NCBI GenBank assembly: GCA_001949185.1
Contig: BDGG01000001.1
Coordinates: 1,546,263 to 1,610,262 of the forward strand
Source of the DNA: Ramazzottius varieornatus
Lineage: Eukaryota > Animalia > Tardigrada
DNA length: 64,000 nucleotides
Reading direction: 5' to 3'
Shown here: positions 14,433 through 60,845 of the stretch, piece by piece
Layout of the letters: every line of letters starts with the position of its first letter
Position numbering within the stretch: the first letter of the stretch is position 1
The notes under the pieces: generated by a model
The model's database searches: none
What the model was told of the DNA's origin: nothing
Seen by the model: only the letters and a program-made list of their open reading frames with translations
Position numbers and translations under genes: made by a program

Positions 14433-15247
14433 TTGGTCTGGGAGAACCGTTCTGTATTATCGGTACTTCACTGTCTAAATCATCAGTCCAACGCTGAACA
14501 GAACCCAGCGCTAGAAGAAAGCGACAATTCCACCACATTTCTGGATAGAAAAGATCGGGACCCAGAATACTTCCGGAAAAGGCACGACTTCCTGAAGATC
14601 CGAACCGCGAACTCGAAAAAGAAGGTAAGAGATTTTTCTGCTCCAAAACCATGTCGCTGAATTTCCATCGATGGTATCGTGTTGGAGTACCTGGGATATC
14701 GCGCCCAAAGTCCCATGCGGAATGCTCTTTACAGACTCGCAATGGAAGTGGAGAAGAAGCTGCATGGATGACACCACCCATACCGAGTCTATTCAGTGAG
14801 CTCGCAGCAGCTTTGGTGAACGCAGAATTCCACAGATCTTATGTCCAAATGATCGGAACAGTTCCGTCGCCCTTCTGCGACAAGAACGGCAGAATAAAAT
14901 GTTCCGGTGCCTGGAACAAGAAGGCTTGTCTCCGACAAGCTCAAGTGTCTCCGTACAGAAACTGGGTCCAGAGATGCGAACTGACAAACTGGAACTTTGA
15001 ACATGTAACCACACTAAAGAGCATGATCGATTTTATAGTGGAAAAGGGAAAGAACATGCCGGATGGGAAGAAGTTTTCATGGTCCTATTTTTACAAGATG
15101 TTATTCATGCGGCCAAATGTGAAACTTGTGGAACGCTCTTGCAATGTCGGAGGAGAGGTGGGACGCAAAACAGTCGACCCTGCTCAAGGCCTCATTGATG
15201 TCGACGTGCAAGAACAGCTCGATGCCTTCGCTCATCCGCATGCGTGA
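14433..15247 (+). CDS. DFFB: DFF40/CAD (caspase-activated DNase)-like nuclease domain, divergent; 5' part unresolved or disrupted
   Basis: Phase-0 intron 14625-14734. FCDKNGRIKCSGAWNKKACLRQAQVSPYRN...TNWNFEHV...DGKKFSWSYFYKMLFMRPNVKLVERSC aligns by eye with the recalled CAD sequence LCTPEGWFSCQGPFD..CLSRHSINPYSN...STWNLDHI...DGREVDWEYFYGLLFTSENLKLVHIVC. Confidence 0.8.
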
Positions 15248-30309: not shown

Positions 30310-31062
30310 TCAGGCGTTCAGTCCGGCTGTAGATCCGCTCTTCGCTGCGATCTGTAGCCTTAGATTCATGACTTCTGCCAGATAAATAAAGAAACGAATT
30401 GTACGGACTGTCGCTGCGTTTTGAAGAACGACCGTCTTACCAGACTCTAGGCATCTAGACTCATCCTTCACGCTTCTGAGCTCTGCCAGCAGTTTATCTT
30501 TGACCGTCTCCAGGCTGTCCTTCTGTTCAAGCCGGCGGTTCCGACAGCTCTTAAAAAATACTATCACAATTCATCTTACTTTTACCAACTGCCAGCGGCG
30601 CAGCCTGACACGTGACCTTGTTGGGTCATGCAGCTTATGCTACCTATGATAGCACGTGCTCAAGCAGCGCTAACAGTACTTACAGCTGCATATCCTCGAT
30701 TTTTCAACGTTCTCCTTCTCTGCTTTATCCGTTTGATTTCTTCCTTTGGCTGACCTCGTAGCCGGCGATTGAGCTCAGGGATGGTCAGGTCAACTAATTC
30801 TTTGTCGGAAACAAGCTCAGATTCCTCTCCAATCAAGTCATCGTTGTCGTCGTCTCCACGAGAAGAGTTGGTCTCCGAATGACGGGAATCCACCGACCTA
30901 CGAAAAGAACACAAGTCGCAACCGTTGTCACATCTTTCGGATCGAGTAATCCTACATTGTGGCTAGGTTCAGGAACAGGTCCAGGAACTCTGACACCTTG
31001 AGGAATATTTCCAGGTGCAATCCAGGTAAACACCCAAGAAATTGCTAAACCTGCCTCGTCAT
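30310..31062 (-). CDS. maf-S: Small Maf bZIP transcription factor
   Basis: [42 protein letters not shown]|[14 protein letters not shown] is the Maf extended homology + basic region. No transactivation domain. Start is either 31062 or a split AT|G at 30957. Confidence 0.92.
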
Positions 31063-31146: not shown

Positions 31147-31232
31147 GACGAAGCAGATATCTAAGTTAAGCTTGTCTTTTGAATTACACGACGAAGCAGA
31201 TATCTAAGTTAAGCTTGTCTTTTGAATTACAC
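31147..31232. repeat. Perfect 43-bp tandem duplication in the Maf/CDC23 divergent intergenic region
   Basis: GACGAAGCAGATATCTAAGTTAAGCTTGTCTTTTGAATTACAC x2. Confidence 0.95.
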
Positions 31233-31533: not shown

Positions 31534-33732
31534 ATGGCCGATCTTTCGACATCGCAGCTCAGCGAGATGGATTTGTCGACTGCATCCTCTCTACCTTCTC
31601 CTACCGAAGAATTCATCCTTCCTCTCGTTTTGCGTCAGTTTCCGTACTCTACTATCAAGAATGATGTAACCCGATGTATGGTATGGTCCAGCCGTCTATG
31701 TTTCTTCCAGTCACAACGATGGGCAGCGGAGCTGCTGAGGCCGATGGAGAAGATCAAAGGCAAGGCCAAGTCTCCCTTGGCGGAAAGCGATGTCGAGCTG
31801 TTTTCCTCCGTCAACCATCCTCTCTTCTTCGTCATTATCAGCGCCATGCAAAGGTACCAATATGGAGAAGCTTTGGGTTACCTCAAGTCGCCAGAGTACG
31901 AAGAAGACGCGAAGAAGAATCACCTGTTTCGCTTCTTGTCTTTCTACTGTCGATTTCTTCATGGACAATCTTTAGCTATTCAGACGGCCGACAACCCTTT
32001 AGAATTCTCCCCGACCACCGAAAAAGATGTGAAACACCTCCAGGTAATATTTTCACCAGAAATTCCGAAATCCATTGTGGAATGTGGATATATCTCGAAT
32101 TCTGTGCAGATTTTGCGCGAACAGATAAAAGAAGAAAAGCTGATCAACGGCTTGGATTCCCTCATGAAGTACATGTACGCTGTCGTTCTCCGACAACTGG
32201 ATTCTTTCGACATGGCTTGTGATCTCCTGGCAGAAGCCATCACAGAACAGCCGTTCATGTGGTGTTTCTGGTTCGAGTTGTCCGACTGTCTTCGTTCCAC
32301 CGACCAACTCACAACCCTCCTCACTCGACTTCCGCTCCACTGGATGCGCGATTTCTTCCTCGGTCGAGCCTACCATCTGCTAAATATGCCAGAGGAGGCC
32401 TATCAGACATACAAGTACCTAAGAAAGAGTCTGTTTTCTAGCACGCCGTACGTCTTGGGGGAAATGGCCAAGGTCTGCTATGGAAGGAGGGAAACGCAGG
32501 AAGCCTTCAAGCTGATGGAAAAGATTCGAGCCAGTGAGCCCTTCCGGCTGGACGATATGGACTTCTACTCCGTAGTCCTGTACGCTCGCGGAGATAAGGT
32601 ACAGCTGAAACCCTGATGACTGTGGCATGGAAGTCTCATGAGAAGAACTGGAGAAGTGAATATTGAGCTGAGGCTGAATATCGAGTTTACAAACGAATGT
32701 CGTCATTGCGAACGCGATCGCTTACACTGTACAGAGCACAGTATAATAGCGATGACGTCATGTGCAAGTTGGTTGAATCTGGCATTCGACAGTTGGACAG
32801 GTTTTGCGAAGGTTATGTTGAAGCATCTCGTCAAGCGTTTTTTCCTTATCTTGCAGGGAAGGCTTGGGAAACTTTCAAGAGAGCTTCACGACATTGATCC
32901 CTTCACGCCGGAAACTCACATCGTCATTGGAAACTACTACAGCTTGCTGGAGCAGAGCGATCGAGCCATCGAGCACTACAGCAAAGCCTTGAGAGCCAAC
33001 TCGGAGAACCAGACCGCTTGGCTCAACCTTGGGTACGAATACATGGGCCTCAAGAACTATACAAGAGCCACTTCCAGCTTCCAGAAAGTCGTTGAACTGA
33101 ACCCGTTGGATTTGAGAGCGTGGATCAGTTTGGGGAAAGTGGCGGAAGCCGAACACAAACGACCGGAAGCTGCTCTGTACGTCTTTCCTCGTTTCAATCA
33201 TCTGGTGCTGTCCTTGTTTAAAACCCACTCTATTCTTGACAGGTACTTCTTCAAGGCTACGCAAGTCAGTCCAGCCGATCCGCGCGGCTGGAAAGCCTTG
33301 GGGAACGTCTGCGAGTTGATGGAGAAGATGGAAGACGCCATGAAAGCGTACTGGCAAGCATACTTGTGTGGTGAGAAAGAAGAACCTGTGCTGGTGAAGT
33401 TAGGTAAACTTTACGAGAAGGCAAACCAGAAAAAGAGCGCTTTGACTGTGTACGAGAAGTACGTGGAGAGCTGTGAGGAGATGGTGGCGAACGCGAAGGG
33501 CAAGGAGGACCTCGGTAGAAGTGGTTACTTGTCCGAACTGATGTTCGTAATGCAGTTCATAACGCTCGAATACAAGGATGAAGGAAGGGAAGATGACGCC
33601 ATGGCGCTGGAGAAACAGGTGGAAAGGCTAAAGAATGGGAATGACGGCAAGAAGAAAGCGGCGGAAGTTCTAACGCCTGGAAAGAGTTTCAATGAGTCTG
33701 TCTCGATGGATCTCAGTACTGACGAGCAATAG
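31534..33732 (+). CDS. CDC23: Cell division cycle 23 / APC8 TPR subunit of APC/C
   Basis: SSRLCFFQSQRWAAELL, LPLHWMRDFF, EPFRLDDMDFYSVVLY, PETHIVIGNYYSL, AWLNLGYEYMGLKNYTRA, NPLDLRAWISLG; introns 32044-32109, 32599-32856, 33177-33242. Confidence 0.9.
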
Positions 33733-34212
33733 TTTCGGTTTCCGCTTTCCAGAATATTTCAGTGTTGTATTTTCTGCCTGACAGAATGGAGTTTTTTCGT
33801 ACAATGATGACTTTTCGGAATGATTAGGTTTGTTGACGGAAGGAAATGAACTGGCATCCCAACTTCCCGGAAACGAATGATACAACCGATTTCTAGTACT
33901 GTAACAGTTCTCTGTTCAACATCTTCGAACAGAGAATGGAAACACAACCAACGTCAACAGGAACAAAAGCAAAAATCTTAAAATTCTCAAATGGGGAGGA
34001 GTACAAAGTTCGAAACAGATGAGACAATCTTCGGCATGACGGCATGACTGCAAACTAAGTGATTGTAAAGACTGGAAAGTAGTTCCGACGCGACCAACTT
34101 TATATTTCAGAAGGAAAAAACAACATGGAAAACAACTCCGAAAAGTACACCACTGCAGTTCAACGAAGCGACAAACAAAAGCTGAAAGATCCTAAACCCC
34201 TCACGTATGTAT

Positions 34213-35303
34213 CTAAAAATAATGTCCGTTGTGGTAAAGATAGTCGACGACTTCTTCTTTCAAGAAATACTGACGGAAAGTTTTGGATGGAGCACAGCGG
34301 TTGCAGACGTAGGCTTGGTTGTCACTTTTTCTGCATCGGAACACACAGATTGAATGATGCCACTCGTCACAATTGTCACACTGGGTCATACTGAAGAGCT
34401 CTTCGTGGGAGTACTTTCCACAAAAACAGTTGGTCACATCAACATTCCGTCCCTGTAAGCAGAACGACAAGCAACTCACGCATGGAAATTGTAAAAATGT
34501 GATCGTCGAAATTTCAGATTATAATGGAAGTTTCGCACTTACACCAGCATTTGCCTTCCTCTGTTCAGCCATTCTTCTGCGCTGAGCTGCAACCTGTAAT
34601 CGAGGAGCTTTCTTCGGTTGAACTTTCTTCTGCGGCGCGGCTTTCTTCTGATACAGAGGAGGTTGTGCGACCGGAGAACGACCAGCTACAGACTGATGAG
34701 CTGGTTTCTTCGGAACAGTCTTGCGAGGTAGAGGAGACTTTCTGGCTTTCGCTGAAGAGACTTCCGGTGCTGGGACAGTCTTCCGCGGGCGTCCGATCTT
34801 CGGGGTAGCGAGGACGCGACGCGCAGTGGGCTTTCTCTGGAATGGAGTCTTTCCTCGCGCCATTCTTCTGACCGATTCGTGACACAGGCTGGAGGATGCA
34901 TGAGAGTCGGTAGGTGAGGGCTGGGAAGCTTCCAATGCAGCCAAGTCCGATAGACGAGACGAAGTAAGTCGCAGTGAGTGACCACGGATAGTAGCTGGAA
35001 GGTTGGGATCGACGGGCGCTGGAGCTTTCGCTTTAGCAGGACGTCCCCGCTTGGCAGCTGGTTTGGCCGGAGCCTTGGCTACAGGCTTCTTCGCAGTTTT
35101 CTGCAATCGACAGTGTAATAAGAGAATGTTAATACATCAAAGTGAGATTTGTAAGATGGGGATGCAATCCGCACCGTAGGTGGACGACGGTTTTGCTTTG
35201 CAACCAGGGGTGGTCGAGGCTTGCTGACCAGGCGCGTGGCGCTGACGTCCATTGCTCTAGATTTGGAGCTCCTGGGACTGGTGAGCAGACTGATCTTGCT
35301 CAT
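34213..35303 (-). CDS. Basic disordered AT-hook protein with C-terminal PHD finger
   Basis: Exons 35303-35175, 35100-34543, 34452-34213. KRGRPAK and GRPRK AT-hook cores. PHD C4HC3: CFC...QCDNCDEWHHSIC...YVCNRC. Confidence 0.8.
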
Positions 35304-35606
35304 TCTGCAAGTAACAAACCATCAAGGAACATGGAAGGACTACAGTGAAACCTGATGAACCGGTCGTATGAAGACTGCTTCGGCTTCAGGCTTTCAGCTC
35401 CACAAGATGGAGAATCCAGAACGCACTCACCTTCTTCCGCAGCTGTGTGCAACAGGAACCGGTTTTCTGCGAAGCTTATACAGCGCAAGGTATGGAACGA
35501 ACTTTTGCTCGGAAATCAGAAGGAAACAAACCCGGACAAACATTCAAAATGAAGGTCGCGCTGAACGGAGAAAATGCCAAAATCAGAATTAATTTTCATT
35601 TCAATA

Positions 35607-36702
35607 TAGAGATTGCGAGGACAGGTCAGGTCCATAAAAAGCCACTCCCATCTTTCGGTCTCATGTTTCGACGGGTCGTGGGCCGGCTCGAACACGGTGA
35701 AACGCTGCTATTGGTCGACCGGGAAACCGAGACTTCGATTCAGACCGTGCGCGACTGGTCTCATGGAAAACTGAAATTTTGATGAGACCGATTTCTGAGA
35801 CCGTCCGGTAAATTATCTCCTCTAACTTTAGCGTATTTCTGCGCGTTCCGGAGCCTGAAGACTGCCCCTTTCGTGATTTTGGACCGCAGCGTGCGGTGTC
35901 GAACTTTTACGTGGGAGTTCGACATAACATTACACGCATCTACCCCTACTTCAGTGGCGCACTTCCAGTCCCACGATGCCCGAGGAATCGCGACTTGCGC
36001 TTGGAGATTTGCTATTATCCGTGAACTTCATAGCACCAGGATACTTCCAGATTACCAGAGGCTAGGAGCCTGGCTAGCCAGCTGAAATTCGACGGACGAG
36101 AGCGATATACATCTTTCAGACTTTCGGCAACCTCGGCGCAGTGAGCATTAAGCAACAATGCTCAGGATTCCATGACATCCACGATGGCCGCTTTCTCCAC
36201 AAAGCAACCAGTTGAGGATGCCGATTATGTGGTCTGCGGGTGTTTGTATAGCCGGCTAGCCAGGCGTAGGACAGTAGGAAGCTGCACTAAAGTTGCTGGA
36301 TTAGAAAATGAGAAAACATGCGTATCCCCCGCGTTATCAGATATGTCCTTGATGTGCCTCATTTGACTTTCGCCTTATCGTGCGTGTTATGATCTCCTTT
36401 TCGTGTCATGCGTTGGAGTTCGGGAGAGTAAAAGATGGTCAAGAGTTTAGACACTACTGCGGATCCGGTCAGAGCTTTTTACTTCCGGTCGGCAGAACAA
36501 GGATTGCGATATGAGAGTGCACAAACGTGAGACCGTGAGGCGAAATTCTTCCCATGCACAGACGGTGACATCACTTTTGACTTTCATAAAGCTTCATAAA
36601 GCTGATCGGGGCGGAGTTGACTTGTCCATATCTGAGACTGAACCCTGAGAGTCGCGAATATGACGGCAGTTTATGAGACCTGACCTGTCCTCGCAAGCTC
36701 TA
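35607..36702. mobile_element. Non-autonomous DNA transposon (about 1.1 kb, TIR about 33 bp, TA flanks)
   Basis: TAGAGATTGCGAGGACAGGTCAGGTCCATAAA at 35607 versus the reverse complement TAGAGCTTGCGAGGACAGGTCAGGTCTCATAAA ending at 36702. TA on both sides. No transposase. Confidence 0.82.
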
Positions 36703-37001
36703 TAATGTCAAAGGCAGATCCGTGCCGACATCTACGCATTTGCGAGGGCTCCGCCCAAAAGGCTGGCCTTCCAGCGGAGCTATAGAATGAATTATAGACC
36801 GCTTGAGTCATCGTAGGAAGCTGTTCAGGCATTCTAAAGTCCTTAAACTGGGGAAAATATGGCAAACCTGAGCCTAGGGCGGAAAGATAGAAGGATGGGA
36901 ACCAAGGTTCATTCACATCTGACGTAACTAAAAGCCCGGACCGGTTACCACGCCCATTGACCAATAAACAGGAAGAACGGGCCAATAAACCAGCTGTGAT
37001 T

Positions 37002-37175
37002 GGGCGGTCAACCTATCAATGCCAATGGCTAGTATCGGTGGTCAAATATAGCAGAACCAATGTCCGGCCCCCAGTGCTCAACCTAGAAAGACCAATGGTC
37101 AACCCCTAGTGGTCAAGACAGCAAGACCAACGGTTAGCCACTAGTGGTCAATCTACCAAGATCAATGGTCAACCA
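37002..37175. repeat. Degenerate 35-bp minisatellite, about 5 units
   Basis: Units at about 37002, 37035, 37071, 37106, 37141; consensus like CTAGTGGTCAAnnTAnCAAGACCAATGGTCAACCn. Confidence 0.75.
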
Positions 37176-59375: not shown

Positions 59376-59931
59376 GACCGATAGCTCGAGGAGTAGTAAC
59401 CTGCAGCGAAACAACAACAACAGCTCAGAAGTTAATCGACAGTAAGAATTCAAACAAGATGTCCGCGATCGTCTTTATGATGGCGCGCGAAAAAGCAATC
59501 TTATCGGATGAGTGAAGAAACCCTTCGCAGCTTTGCACGTTGTTCGTCTGTTGTCTGTTCGCTCTTCGTCTAGATCTGTTACGTCAGCGATGTTTTCATC
59601 CATTGATGCGTCAACAGGGTATCGACAATGGGAACAGGTAGAAGAGGGTGGGGCCATTGGGTCAGAAACAATAGCCATTGGGAGGCTGGTGGCTCGTTGG
59701 ATTAGTCACGGAAGTACGAGGGCACGGGAAGTACGTACCACGCCCTGTCCACACGCTGGACATGCGGCAAGCCGCCACAACCACTTGTTACGCTGGGCTA
59801 GGTCGCTTCGAAAATCACCCTTCCTGGTTGTGTTCGATCTGGTGCGTCGATACACCACAGTGGTATTAAATGGCGATACAGCTGATCGGATCATTAAGAC
59901 TTAGAGTACACGTGCCTGGCCTAAATGTGGG

Positions 59932-59981
59932 NNNNNNNNNNNNNNNNNNNNNNNNNNNNNNNNNNNNNNNNNNNNNNNNNN
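59932..59981. other. Assembly gap (50 N)
   Basis: Run of N. Confidence 1.
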
Positions 59982-60845
59982 AACCAAAAGTTACAACTTC
60001 AACGGAGAAGCCATTCCAACTGAAGAAGAAGCTGAGTGCCTGGGGGTGACGTTCTCGAGGCGCTTAGACTGGACCGGACAAGTGGACAAGGTGGTGGCCA
60101 AGTGCAGAAAGAGACTGTACGCTATCAAAACCTTTTTCCCTCGGCGCTTTGGTATGGTGAAACAACTGCTGTACAAGAGCATCGTCAGATCGGTGTTGGA
60201 CTACGCGTCATCGTCGTGGCACAGCACGGGAAAAGGTCTGCAAAAGAAGCTCGCAAAAAAACAGAAGTTCCTACAGACTATTCGCTTGGGCTGTCTGGAA
60301 GGGAACGAGAGGCATGACGTGGACTTCGCGCAGTACAGAGAACATTTGGCTGAAGTAGAGTGGCATCCGCTGTGGCAGAGAAGGCTGGAAGGTATTTTAC
60401 TGAACGCTTTCAAGATCTGGAAAGGAATGTTTGCAGGTGGCGAGCTCATCATGAAGAGAGACATGCCAGGAAGGACAACAAGAAGTCAGTCCAAAGAATT
60501 TCTTCTGTCGCCTGTAAGCTTTGCTTCCGCGTCATGTAAACTTTAGATTCTACCGCAGCTTCTTTTGCCTACGCGGCCGCAGAAATTTTGAAAGATCCCG
60601 TCTTTTGCCCTAGGCCTGGTCAACTGTTATCTGTTGGCAGCTTTAAGAACTATCTGTCGGGTTTTAAATTTTCAAATTTAAAATGGTGCAAGGACTTTGT
60701 CGATCGTTTGCTGGTTGTTTAAATTGTTTTGCTGTACTTTTGTATGGCTCTCTTTTTCCTACGGCTTTCTTGCCACCATTTTTCCAATTTGTCCCCTAAG
60801 CGCTATGCCTGGCCAAGCAGTCGGATAGATAAAGGTTATTATAAC
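59982..60845 (+). mobile_element. 3' end of a non-LTR retrotransposon (CR1/L2-group ORF2 C-terminus), truncated by the gap
   Basis: YNFNGEAIPTEEEAECLGVTFSRRLDWTGQVDKV...LYKSIVRSVLDYASSSW...LWQRR...FKIWKG. Frameshift or stop near 60545. Ends in ATAAAGGTTATTATAA. Confidence 0.85.

What the first reader, a model, noticed from the sequence alone, without database searches (positions are those of the whole stretch)
34213..35303. AT-hook/PHD protein with an embedded histone H3-tail mimic
Seen: at about 34730-34863 the protein reads MARGKTPFQRKPTARRVLATPK...SAKARKSP. This echoes the H3 tail elements MARTK, RKQLATK and AARKSAP in the same order, within an H1-tail-like K/A/P-rich region with two AT-hook cores, followed by a single PHD finger. 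Established: PHD fingers read H3 N-tails, and ARKS motifs are methyltransferase/kinase targets. Inference: an undescribed chromatin protein whose own tail could be modified or bind its PHD (autoinhibition or decoy). Initiation at the internal Met would expose an ARxK N-terminus.
Basis: partly seen in the sequence, partly recalled or inferred. Interest (0 to 1): 0.7.

Follow-up and report, generated by a model that had tools for sequence, protein, structure and literature searches.

The report
Tardigrade PHD protein; histone mimic coincidental
This is a spliced tardigrade gene for a floppy, positively charged protein that ends in a zinc finger predicted to read methylated histone H3, and its resemblance to the H3 tail is likely a by-product of amino-acid composition, since its one retrieved relative lacks most of the matching residues.

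Summary
The gene is real: RvY_00545 of Ramazzottius varieornatus, minus strand, three introns confirmed in RNA-type contigs from five studies. The PHD finger is real and of the MLL5/Set3/ASH1L type, with all eight zinc ligands and the methyl-lysine pocket positions in place. The motifs quoted are at the stated coordinates. Against shuffled sequence the H3 tail scores p 0.15-0.32 with ordinary gap costs and reaches 0.006-0.09 only with very cheap gaps; 6 of 45 unrelated control stretches did as well. The one ortholog found (P0002) keeps 3 of the 14 H3-identical residues, has no Met there, and its own best H3 match lies at a different place. The mimic Met (M161) is internal, behind three in-frame AUGs. 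Only the first AT-hook core is conserved. Best reading: a fast-evolving, PHF13-like chromatin reader (basic tail on DNA, PHD on H3K4me2/3; inferred). A charge-based, BAZ2B-like damping of the PHD and a species-specific mimic remain open on one ortholog. The scan noted H3-tail mimics before in fungal DNA, not this gene. Undescribed but ordinary.

The parts
35431..35580 (-). Exon 1: leader, holding the in-frame ATG at 35543 (M1 of the database model; probably not the main start)
   Evidence: RNA-type contigs end at 35508, 35537, 35545, 35552, 35580 and (one, with differences) 35817; ortholog starts at the M39 equivalent
35305..35430 (-). Intron 1, 126 nt, GT-AG
   Evidence: skipped in 6 of 8 runs laid; the other two runs hold unspliced low-depth pieces
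35175..35304 (-). Exon 2: likely start M39 at 35303; conserved SLLTSPRS block (35291-35268)
   Evidence: residues 39-76 are 20 of 38 identical to P0002
35101..35174 (-). Intron 2, 74 nt, GT-AG
34543..35100 (-). Exon 3: basic, Ala/Pro-rich, predicted disordered region (residues 82-267)
   Evidence: composition; pLDDT under 50 and no secondary structure before residue 248; no Pfam or PDB match
35032..35052 (-). AT-hook-like core 1 (KRGRPAK), conserved as KPGRPRK in the ortholog
   Evidence: no Pfam AT-hook model matched
34912..34959 (-). Conserved short block SRLSxLA...ASQxSP (residues 129-144), function unknown
   Evidence: residues 113-147 are 17 of 35 identical
34732..34863 (-). The claimed H3-tail mimic (M161-P204); includes GRP core 2 at 34794-34786, which is not conserved
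   Evidence: present; weak statistics; 3 of 14 H3-identical residues kept in P0002
34453..34542 (-). Intron 3, 90 nt, GT-AG
34294..34428 (-). PHD finger, C4HC3 (C276, C278, C292, C295, H300, C303, C317, C320), MLL5/Set3/ASH1L type
   Evidence: phmmer MLL5 E 6e-8, ASH1L 2e-7; all eight ligands kept in P0002; Pfam PHD_5 22.7 bits, under its cut-off of 27, the ortholog passes
34231..34257 (-). Predicted C-terminal helix after the PHD (residues 333-341), as in MLL5 and Set3
   Evidence: AlphaFold models; model range 5-76 aligns to MLL5 4l58, Z 6.2, rmsd 2.7, 65 aligned
33835..34212 (-). 3' untranslated region, ending close to the 3' end of the convergent CDC23 gene
   Evidence: contigs end at 33835-33927 in five runs; in one run the contig runs on past 33800

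Best explanation
RvY_00545 is a spliced, transcribed gene for a roughly 308-residue protein with a long basic low-complexity region and one C-terminal PHD finger, and it likely works as a two-point chromatin reader, with the H3-like motifs likely a compositional coincidence. Shown: gene structure, splicing, PHD fold class, conservation of zinc ligands and pocket positions, one ortholog, loss of most H3-like residues in that ortholog. Inferred step 1: the PHD pocket (T274, H283, M289, W298, with D293) holds di- or tri-methylated Lys4 of real histone H3, as the same positions do in MLL5. Inferred step 2: the basic tail (net charge about +47) and the conserved first GRP core grip linker or nucleosomal DNA without much sequence specificity, adding avidity, as the polycationic region of PHF13 does. 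Inferred step 3: Ser/Thr-Pro sites in the tail (6 here, 9 in the ortholog) would tune that grip by phosphorylation. The tail is under selection for charge and composition, not for H3-like order.
For: Splicing in 6 runs of 5 studies. PHD best matches are H3K4me2/3 readers: MLL5, ASH1L, Set3, PHF20, PHF13. MLL5 Thr119, His127, Met132, Trp141 and Asp136 (PMC3793974, passages) align to T274, H283, M289, W298, D293; H, M, W, D are kept in P0002 and T is I. Net charge of the tail is +47 and +46 in the two proteins although only 78 of 215 background residues are identical. H3-identical residues kept: 3 of 14. H3 likeness not significant at ordinary gap costs and matched by 6 of 45 controls at the most favourable setting. 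phmmer of the mimic segment and of the whole exon against the PDB gave 0 hits at E 10. In humans 209 proteins carry an internal M-small-R-x-K motif with no enrichment for chromatin function (PMC8166343, passages).
Against: Only one ortholog was found, so a gain in this species cannot be excluded. K-x-R-K-[S/T] is kept in the ortholog (KARKS, KTRKT). M161 has A at -3 and G at +4. The controls are mostly less K/R/A/P/T/S-rich than the query and include near-duplicates. No binding of H3K4me or DNA was measured; the PHD scores under the Pfam cut-off here and the fold matches are all under Z 8.
Confidence: 0.7

Rival explanations
1. Charge-based self-damping: the basic tail, whatever its exact order, competes with the H3 tail for the PHD surface and lowers its affinity until the tail is phosphorylated or bound to DNA, as the BAZ2B linker does. 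This can hold together with the best explanation.
For: BAZ2B precedent: removing positive patches of the linker raises H3 affinity 3- to 9-fold (PMC5663869, abstract and section 9). Tail charge is conserved.
Against: The BAZ2B effect rests on acidic PHD residues (abstract); this PHD exon has net charge -1 and the ortholog's +4.
Confidence: 0.15
2. A single ARKS site (K202) is a real H3K9/H3K27-like substrate for G9a/SUV39/PRC2-type enzymes or Aurora B, read in trans by a chromodomain, independent of this protein's PHD.
For: K199-x-R201-K202-S203 aligns to K-T-R-K-T in P0002. ARKT/ARKS mimics are known in G9a (PMC8166343, passage) and proposed for CDC73 (PMC11703355, passages).
Against: ARKS occurs in 5.2% and RK[S/T] in 41% of shuffles of this region; the Ala before Arg is Thr in the ortholog; the register there depends on gaps of 11 and 18 residues.
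Confidence: 0.09
3. A true, lineage-specific H3-tail mimic: a short form starting at M161 exposes an ARGK N-terminus that, once methylated at K165, binds the protein's own PHD or acts as a decoy.
For: MARGK fits the iM-small-R-x-K rule of H3 N-terminal mimics if it were N-terminal (PMC8166343); good Kozak context; MARxK in only 1.0% of shuffles; cheap-gap alignments start at M161; the PHD is of the class that would read such a peptide.
Against: M161 is the fourth in-frame AUG; all six spliced contig sets include exons 1-2; the ortholog has Tyr-Pro for Met-Ala and Arg for the target Lys; the same 12 bases around the AUG recur at M258, so the context is a local coding pattern.
Confidence: 0.06

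Closest known systems
MLL5 (KMT2E) / Set3 PHD finger
   Same: Best sequence match (E 6e-8; profile 8e-10); pocket residues align; the model aligns over PHD plus C-terminal helix (4l58 Z 6.2, rmsd 2.7, 65 aligned; Set3 5tdw Z 5.6, rmsd 3.0, 66 aligned).
   Different: MLL5 and Set3 also carry a SET domain (from my own knowledge, and the MLL5 abstract, 46 listing); this gene has none, and its PHD is C-terminal. Z values are tied with ASH1L, PHF13 and PHF23.
PHF13 (SPOC1) / PHF23
   Same: About 300 residues, mostly disordered, polycationic non-specific DNA-binding region plus one late PHD reading H3K4me3 (PMC12214034, passages); PHD matches at E 0.0025 and Z 5.6-5.7.
   Different: No predicted N-terminal dimerisation helix here (low-confidence model); PHD closer in sequence to MLL5/ASH1L; C-terminal helix present. 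Works-like, not shown orthologous.
H3 N-terminal mimicry proteins (VRK1 and others; Chen et al. 2021, PMC8166343)
   Same: M161-A-R-G-K fits the M-small-R-x-K pattern.
   Different: The pattern is internal, the class with no chromatin enrichment in that paper, and it is absent from the ortholog.
BAZ2B histone-mimicking linker (PMC5663869)
   Same: Basic disordered stretch in cis with a PHD.
   Different: BAZ2B's PHD reads unmodified H3 through acidic residues and the patch is PHD-proximal and conserved; here the PHD is methyl-pocket type and about neutral.
Dsup (tardigrade damage suppressor)
   Same: Same species; nucleosome-binding disordered protein (PMC6773438 and PMC11447161, search listing only).
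   Different: No sequence comparison was made; Dsup has no PHD (recalled). No evidence here for DNA protection.

Membership tests
PHD finger | Cys4-His-Cys3 zinc ligands | tested here: met
   All eight present and kept in P0002; invariant or nearly so across 19 rows
PHD finger | Pfam gathering score | tested here: inconclusive
   PHD_5 22.7 of 27, PHD 19.4 of 24; ortholog passes both, 33 and 25.5
H3K4me2/3-reading PHD (MLL5/Set3/ASH1L type) | Trp and Met of the cage, with His/Thr and the following Asp | tested here: met
   T274, H283, M289, D293, W298 align to MLL5 T119, H127, M132, D136, W141
H3K4me2/3-reading PHD (MLL5/Set3/ASH1L type) | Measured binding of methylated H3 peptide | not testable with these tools
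   needs peptide binding assay
MLL5/SETD5/UpSET/Set3 proteins | SET domain in the same polypeptide | tested here: not met
   346-aa product with stop at 34213; Pfam shows PHD only; spliced contigs end in a 3' UTR
MLL5/SETD5/UpSET/Set3 proteins | C-terminal helix packing on the PHD | tested here: inconclusive
   Predicted helix 333-341, pLDDT about 68-69, aligned to MLL5 and Set3; the alignment used for folding held Set3-like and ASH1L rows
PHF13/PHF23 | Conserved N-terminal dimerisation domain | tested here: inconclusive
   No helix predicted before residue 248, but from a two-row alignment with pLDDT under 50; no direct comparison with PHF13 full length
H3 N-terminal mimicry proteins | M-small-R-x-K sequence | tested here: met
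   M161-K165
H3 N-terminal mimicry proteins | Motif at the protein N-terminus | tested here: not met
   Three in-frame AUGs upstream on the spliced mRNA; no contig evidence of a shorter form, though contigs cannot show starts
Histone mimic (general) | Motifs conserved above background | tested here: not met
   3 of 14 against 78 of 215, one ortholog
Histone mimic (general) | Likeness to H3 beyond composition | tested here: inconclusive
   p 0.15-0.32 ordinary gaps; 0.006-0.09 cheap gaps; 6 of 45 controls as good
Histone mimic (general) | Modified or bound by H3 writers/readers | not testable with these tools
   needs methylation and pull-down assays
AT-hook | GRP core flanked by K/R and P | tested here: met
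   KRGRPAK and KIGRPRK, definition from PMC11354804 passages; only core 1 kept in P0002
AT-hook | Full PRGRP-type consensus or Pfam match | tested here: not met
   No AT-hook family at E 1 in either protein
Histone H3 / CenH3 variant | Histone fold | tested here: not met
   No histone match in Pfam or PDB

The most novel reading that the evidence does not exclude
In R. varieornatus this chromatin reader has newly gained an H3-like tail, absent from its relative, and a short form starting at M161 presents an ARGK N-terminus and an ARKS site to H3 writers, so that the protein's own H3K4me-type PHD can be switched off in cis or decoyed in trans: a self-contained writer-substrate and reader in one animal protein.
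Probability: 0.06. Interest if true: 0.65.

Novelty: new member of a known kind. Interest (0 to 1): 0.17.

Why it matters
If the best reading holds, this is one more stand-alone PHD reader with a basic DNA-gripping tail, undescribed and with few detectable relatives, of modest interest to people who study tardigrade chromatin next to Dsup. The case is also a calibration: H3-tail 'echoes' of this strength arise readily in Lys/Arg/Ala/Pro/Thr-rich tails, so conservation, not motif order, has to carry such claims. If the short M161 form existed and bound the PHD, it would be an unusual in-cis H3 mimic and directly testable.

Tried and rejected
No whole genome is held for this window, so paralogs, this species' own H3 genes and the presence of a separate MLL5/SETD5-like gene were not examined. 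Word-index homolog searches with the PHD exon, the whole protein and the two-row alignment returned only P0001, then P0001 and P0002; the full HMMER scan with the PHD exon gave 31 hits at E 0.001, of which only P0002 stood out (E 4e-13). These searches are weak for low-complexity, fast-evolving proteins, so limited distribution is not proven. The complex prediction of the PHD exon with residues 150-215 gave no answer (score 0.02, mark 0.34; alignment not used), which is no evidence either way. ESM Atlas: whole protein gave generic PHD clusters under 0.9; residues 150-225 gave no usable hit. The full-length AlphaFold model was low-confidence (mean pLDDT 41.7). Foldseek gave no match at E 0.001. 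No run is on record as RNA; the kind is a guess, but the joints are GT-AG introns. Contigs cannot show transcript starts; an unspliced depth-2.5 contig of X17 ends at 34931 and was not taken as a start. Origin by insertion of an H3 gene piece: rejected for lack of alignment; not tested at DNA level. Origin by internal duplication: a 12-base repeat links M161 and M258 and a 17-base one links the two PRKTVP copies; suggestive only. Literature: 'RvY_00545' 0 papers; tardigrade + PHD finger + Ramazzottius 1 paper and tardigrade + histone H3 + chromatin + AT-hook 1 paper, both listing only. Supplementary tables were not searched and may list the gene. Earlier scan notes by place and by sequence: none.

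Full report
What is there. The finding lies on the minus strand between a convergent CDC23/APC8 gene (31537-33732; Pfam ANAPC8 E 2.5e-24 and TPR repeats) and a short element bounded by inverted repeats. From splice signals I predicted introns at 35305-35430, 35101-35174 and 34453-34542. All three are skipped in single contigs of 6 of the 8 public runs laid, from five studies; the two others, of unknown kind, hold unspliced low-depth pieces. The spliced frame from 35543 translates to database protein P0001, named by its source RvY_00545 of Ramazzottius varieornatus, a hypothetical or PHD-type zinc-finger protein of 346 residues.

The ortholog. A full HMMER scan with the PHD exon gave 31 proteins at E 0.001; one, P0002 (318 residues, unnamed), stood apart at E 4e-13 and aligns over the whole length (BLASTP E 3e-38, 112 of 347 identical). 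It begins exactly at the M39 equivalent, which favours M39 as the start and a 308-residue product; two of six spliced contigs also stop short of the M1 codon. No other relative was found. Conserved are the N-terminal SLLTSPRS block, the first GRP core, an SRLSxLA block, the PHD (28 of 59) and the net charge of the tail, +47 and +46.

The PHD finger. All eight zinc ligands are present and conserved. The best solved relatives by sequence are MLL5 (E 6e-8), ASH1L (2e-7), Set3, PHF20 and PHF13. A model of the exon (mean pLDDT 71) matches the same H3K4me readers; MLL5 and Set3 align over the PHD and a C-terminal helix (4l58: Z 6.2, rmsd 2.7, 65 aligned), but these Z values are modest and tied with ASH1L, PHF13 and PHF23. 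The MLL5 paper names Trp141, His127, Thr119 and Met132 as the methyl-lysine pocket and describes the C-terminal helix as a feature of MLL5 and its homologs (PMC3793974, passages). These align to W298, H283, T274 and M289; all but the Thr are kept in P0002. That the finger reads H3K4me2/3 is an inference from this.

Is the H3 likeness more than chance? I took real H3 tails from metagenome loci (104 intact tails in 120 loci, 59 identical) and aligned the commonest to residues 39-267. With BLOSUM62 and gap-open 12, 11, 8 and 6, p was 0.23, 0.21, 0.32 and 0.15 against shuffled target, and higher against shuffled H3 or block shuffles. The reversed H3 tail did not fall under 0.27 on this protein. 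Against it: P0002 gets equally low values (0.007-0.05 in the favourable settings) from a different, non-homologous place, starting at residues 26-31 and running over its AT-hook; and of 45 control stretches from unrelated PHD proteins and window reading frames, 6 reached a best p of 0.010 or less, the query's value in that run, and 20 reached 0.05. The controls are imperfect: three stored proteins under 100 residues were left out, four are pieces of ASH1L, two are near-duplicates, most are less rich in K/R/A/P/T/S, and 200 shuffles set a floor of 0.005. phmmer of the mimic segment against the PDB found nothing at E 10.

Is it conserved? The deficit is not significant (Fisher p 0.39); the point is that there is no excess. 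Four MAFFT settings gave the same register. What survives is K-x-R-K-[S/T], and RK[S/T] appears in 41% of shuffles of this region. The second GRP core is GKP in the ortholog.

Internal initiation. M161 has A at -3 and G at +4, but it follows three in-frame AUGs, one of them (M56) also in a strong context, and one out-of-frame AUG. The same 12 bases surround M258. P0002 has Met only at 1, 26, 261 and 308. Contigs cannot show transcript starts, so a minor short form is not excluded.

How it most likely works. The anatomy is that of PHF13: a mostly disordered protein of about 300 residues whose polycationic region binds DNA non-specifically and whose single late PHD reads H3K4me3 (PMC12214034, passages). 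I infer the same two-point grip here, with the conserved GRP core (definition from PMC11354804, passages) contacting the DNA minor groove and Ser/Thr-Pro sites as possible phospho-switches. Confidence 0.7. It works like PHF13 and has an MLL5-type finger, but is not shown to be a member of either family: there is no SET domain, and the PHF13 N-terminal domain was not found in a low-confidence model. Rivals: charge-based damping of the PHD as in BAZ2B (PMC5663869, abstract and section 9), 0.15; a lone ARKS modification site (PMC11703355, passages), 0.09; a true species-specific mimic with a short form, 0.06.

Novelty and verdict. The gene is annotated but I found no paper naming it (two further searches gave one unread paper each; supplements not searched). 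It is a new member of a known kind. Interest 0.17.

Noticed in passing
window 35602-35632 and 36677-36707: A pair of 31-nt inverted repeats (94% complementary, 1044 nt apart) just upstream of the gene's 5' end; RNA contigs show loose ends and variant letters at 35601-35716. Looks like a non-autonomous DNA transposon next to the promoter.
   Followed up: no
window 33835-33862: The CDC23 transcript appears to end with a poly(A) at 33862 while contigs of this gene reach 33835-33858, a tail-to-tail overlap of up to 28 nt; no AATAAA/ATTAAA in this gene's mRNA.
   Followed up: partly
window 35303, 34863 and 34572 (minus strand): M39, M161 and M258 are each preceded by the same six bases coding Arg-Arg on the spliced mRNA; a 12-base exact repeat links the last two. 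PRKTVP occurs twice, 20 residues apart.
   Followed up: partly
window 37045-37174: Three diverged 35-nt tandem units rich in CCAAT-like words.
   Followed up: no
window 31147-31232: Exact 43-nt tandem duplication between the Maf bZIP and CDC23 genes.
   Followed up: no
window 30660-30962 (minus): Maf-type bZIP gene, Pfam bZIP_Maf E 1e-14, head to head with CDC23.
   Followed up: partly
window 14549-15247 (plus): DFF40/CAD apoptotic nuclease-like exon, Pfam DFF40 E 3e-18.
   Followed up: partly
window 59905-60546 (plus): Open frame beside a run of N that reads like the end of a LINE-type element by eye; no Pfam match at E 0.01.
   Followed up: partly
P0002 residues 66-76: The ortholog's own best H3-like stretch (PRK-DATKAA) sits on its AT-hook flank and is not kept in RvY_00545.
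   Followed up: yes
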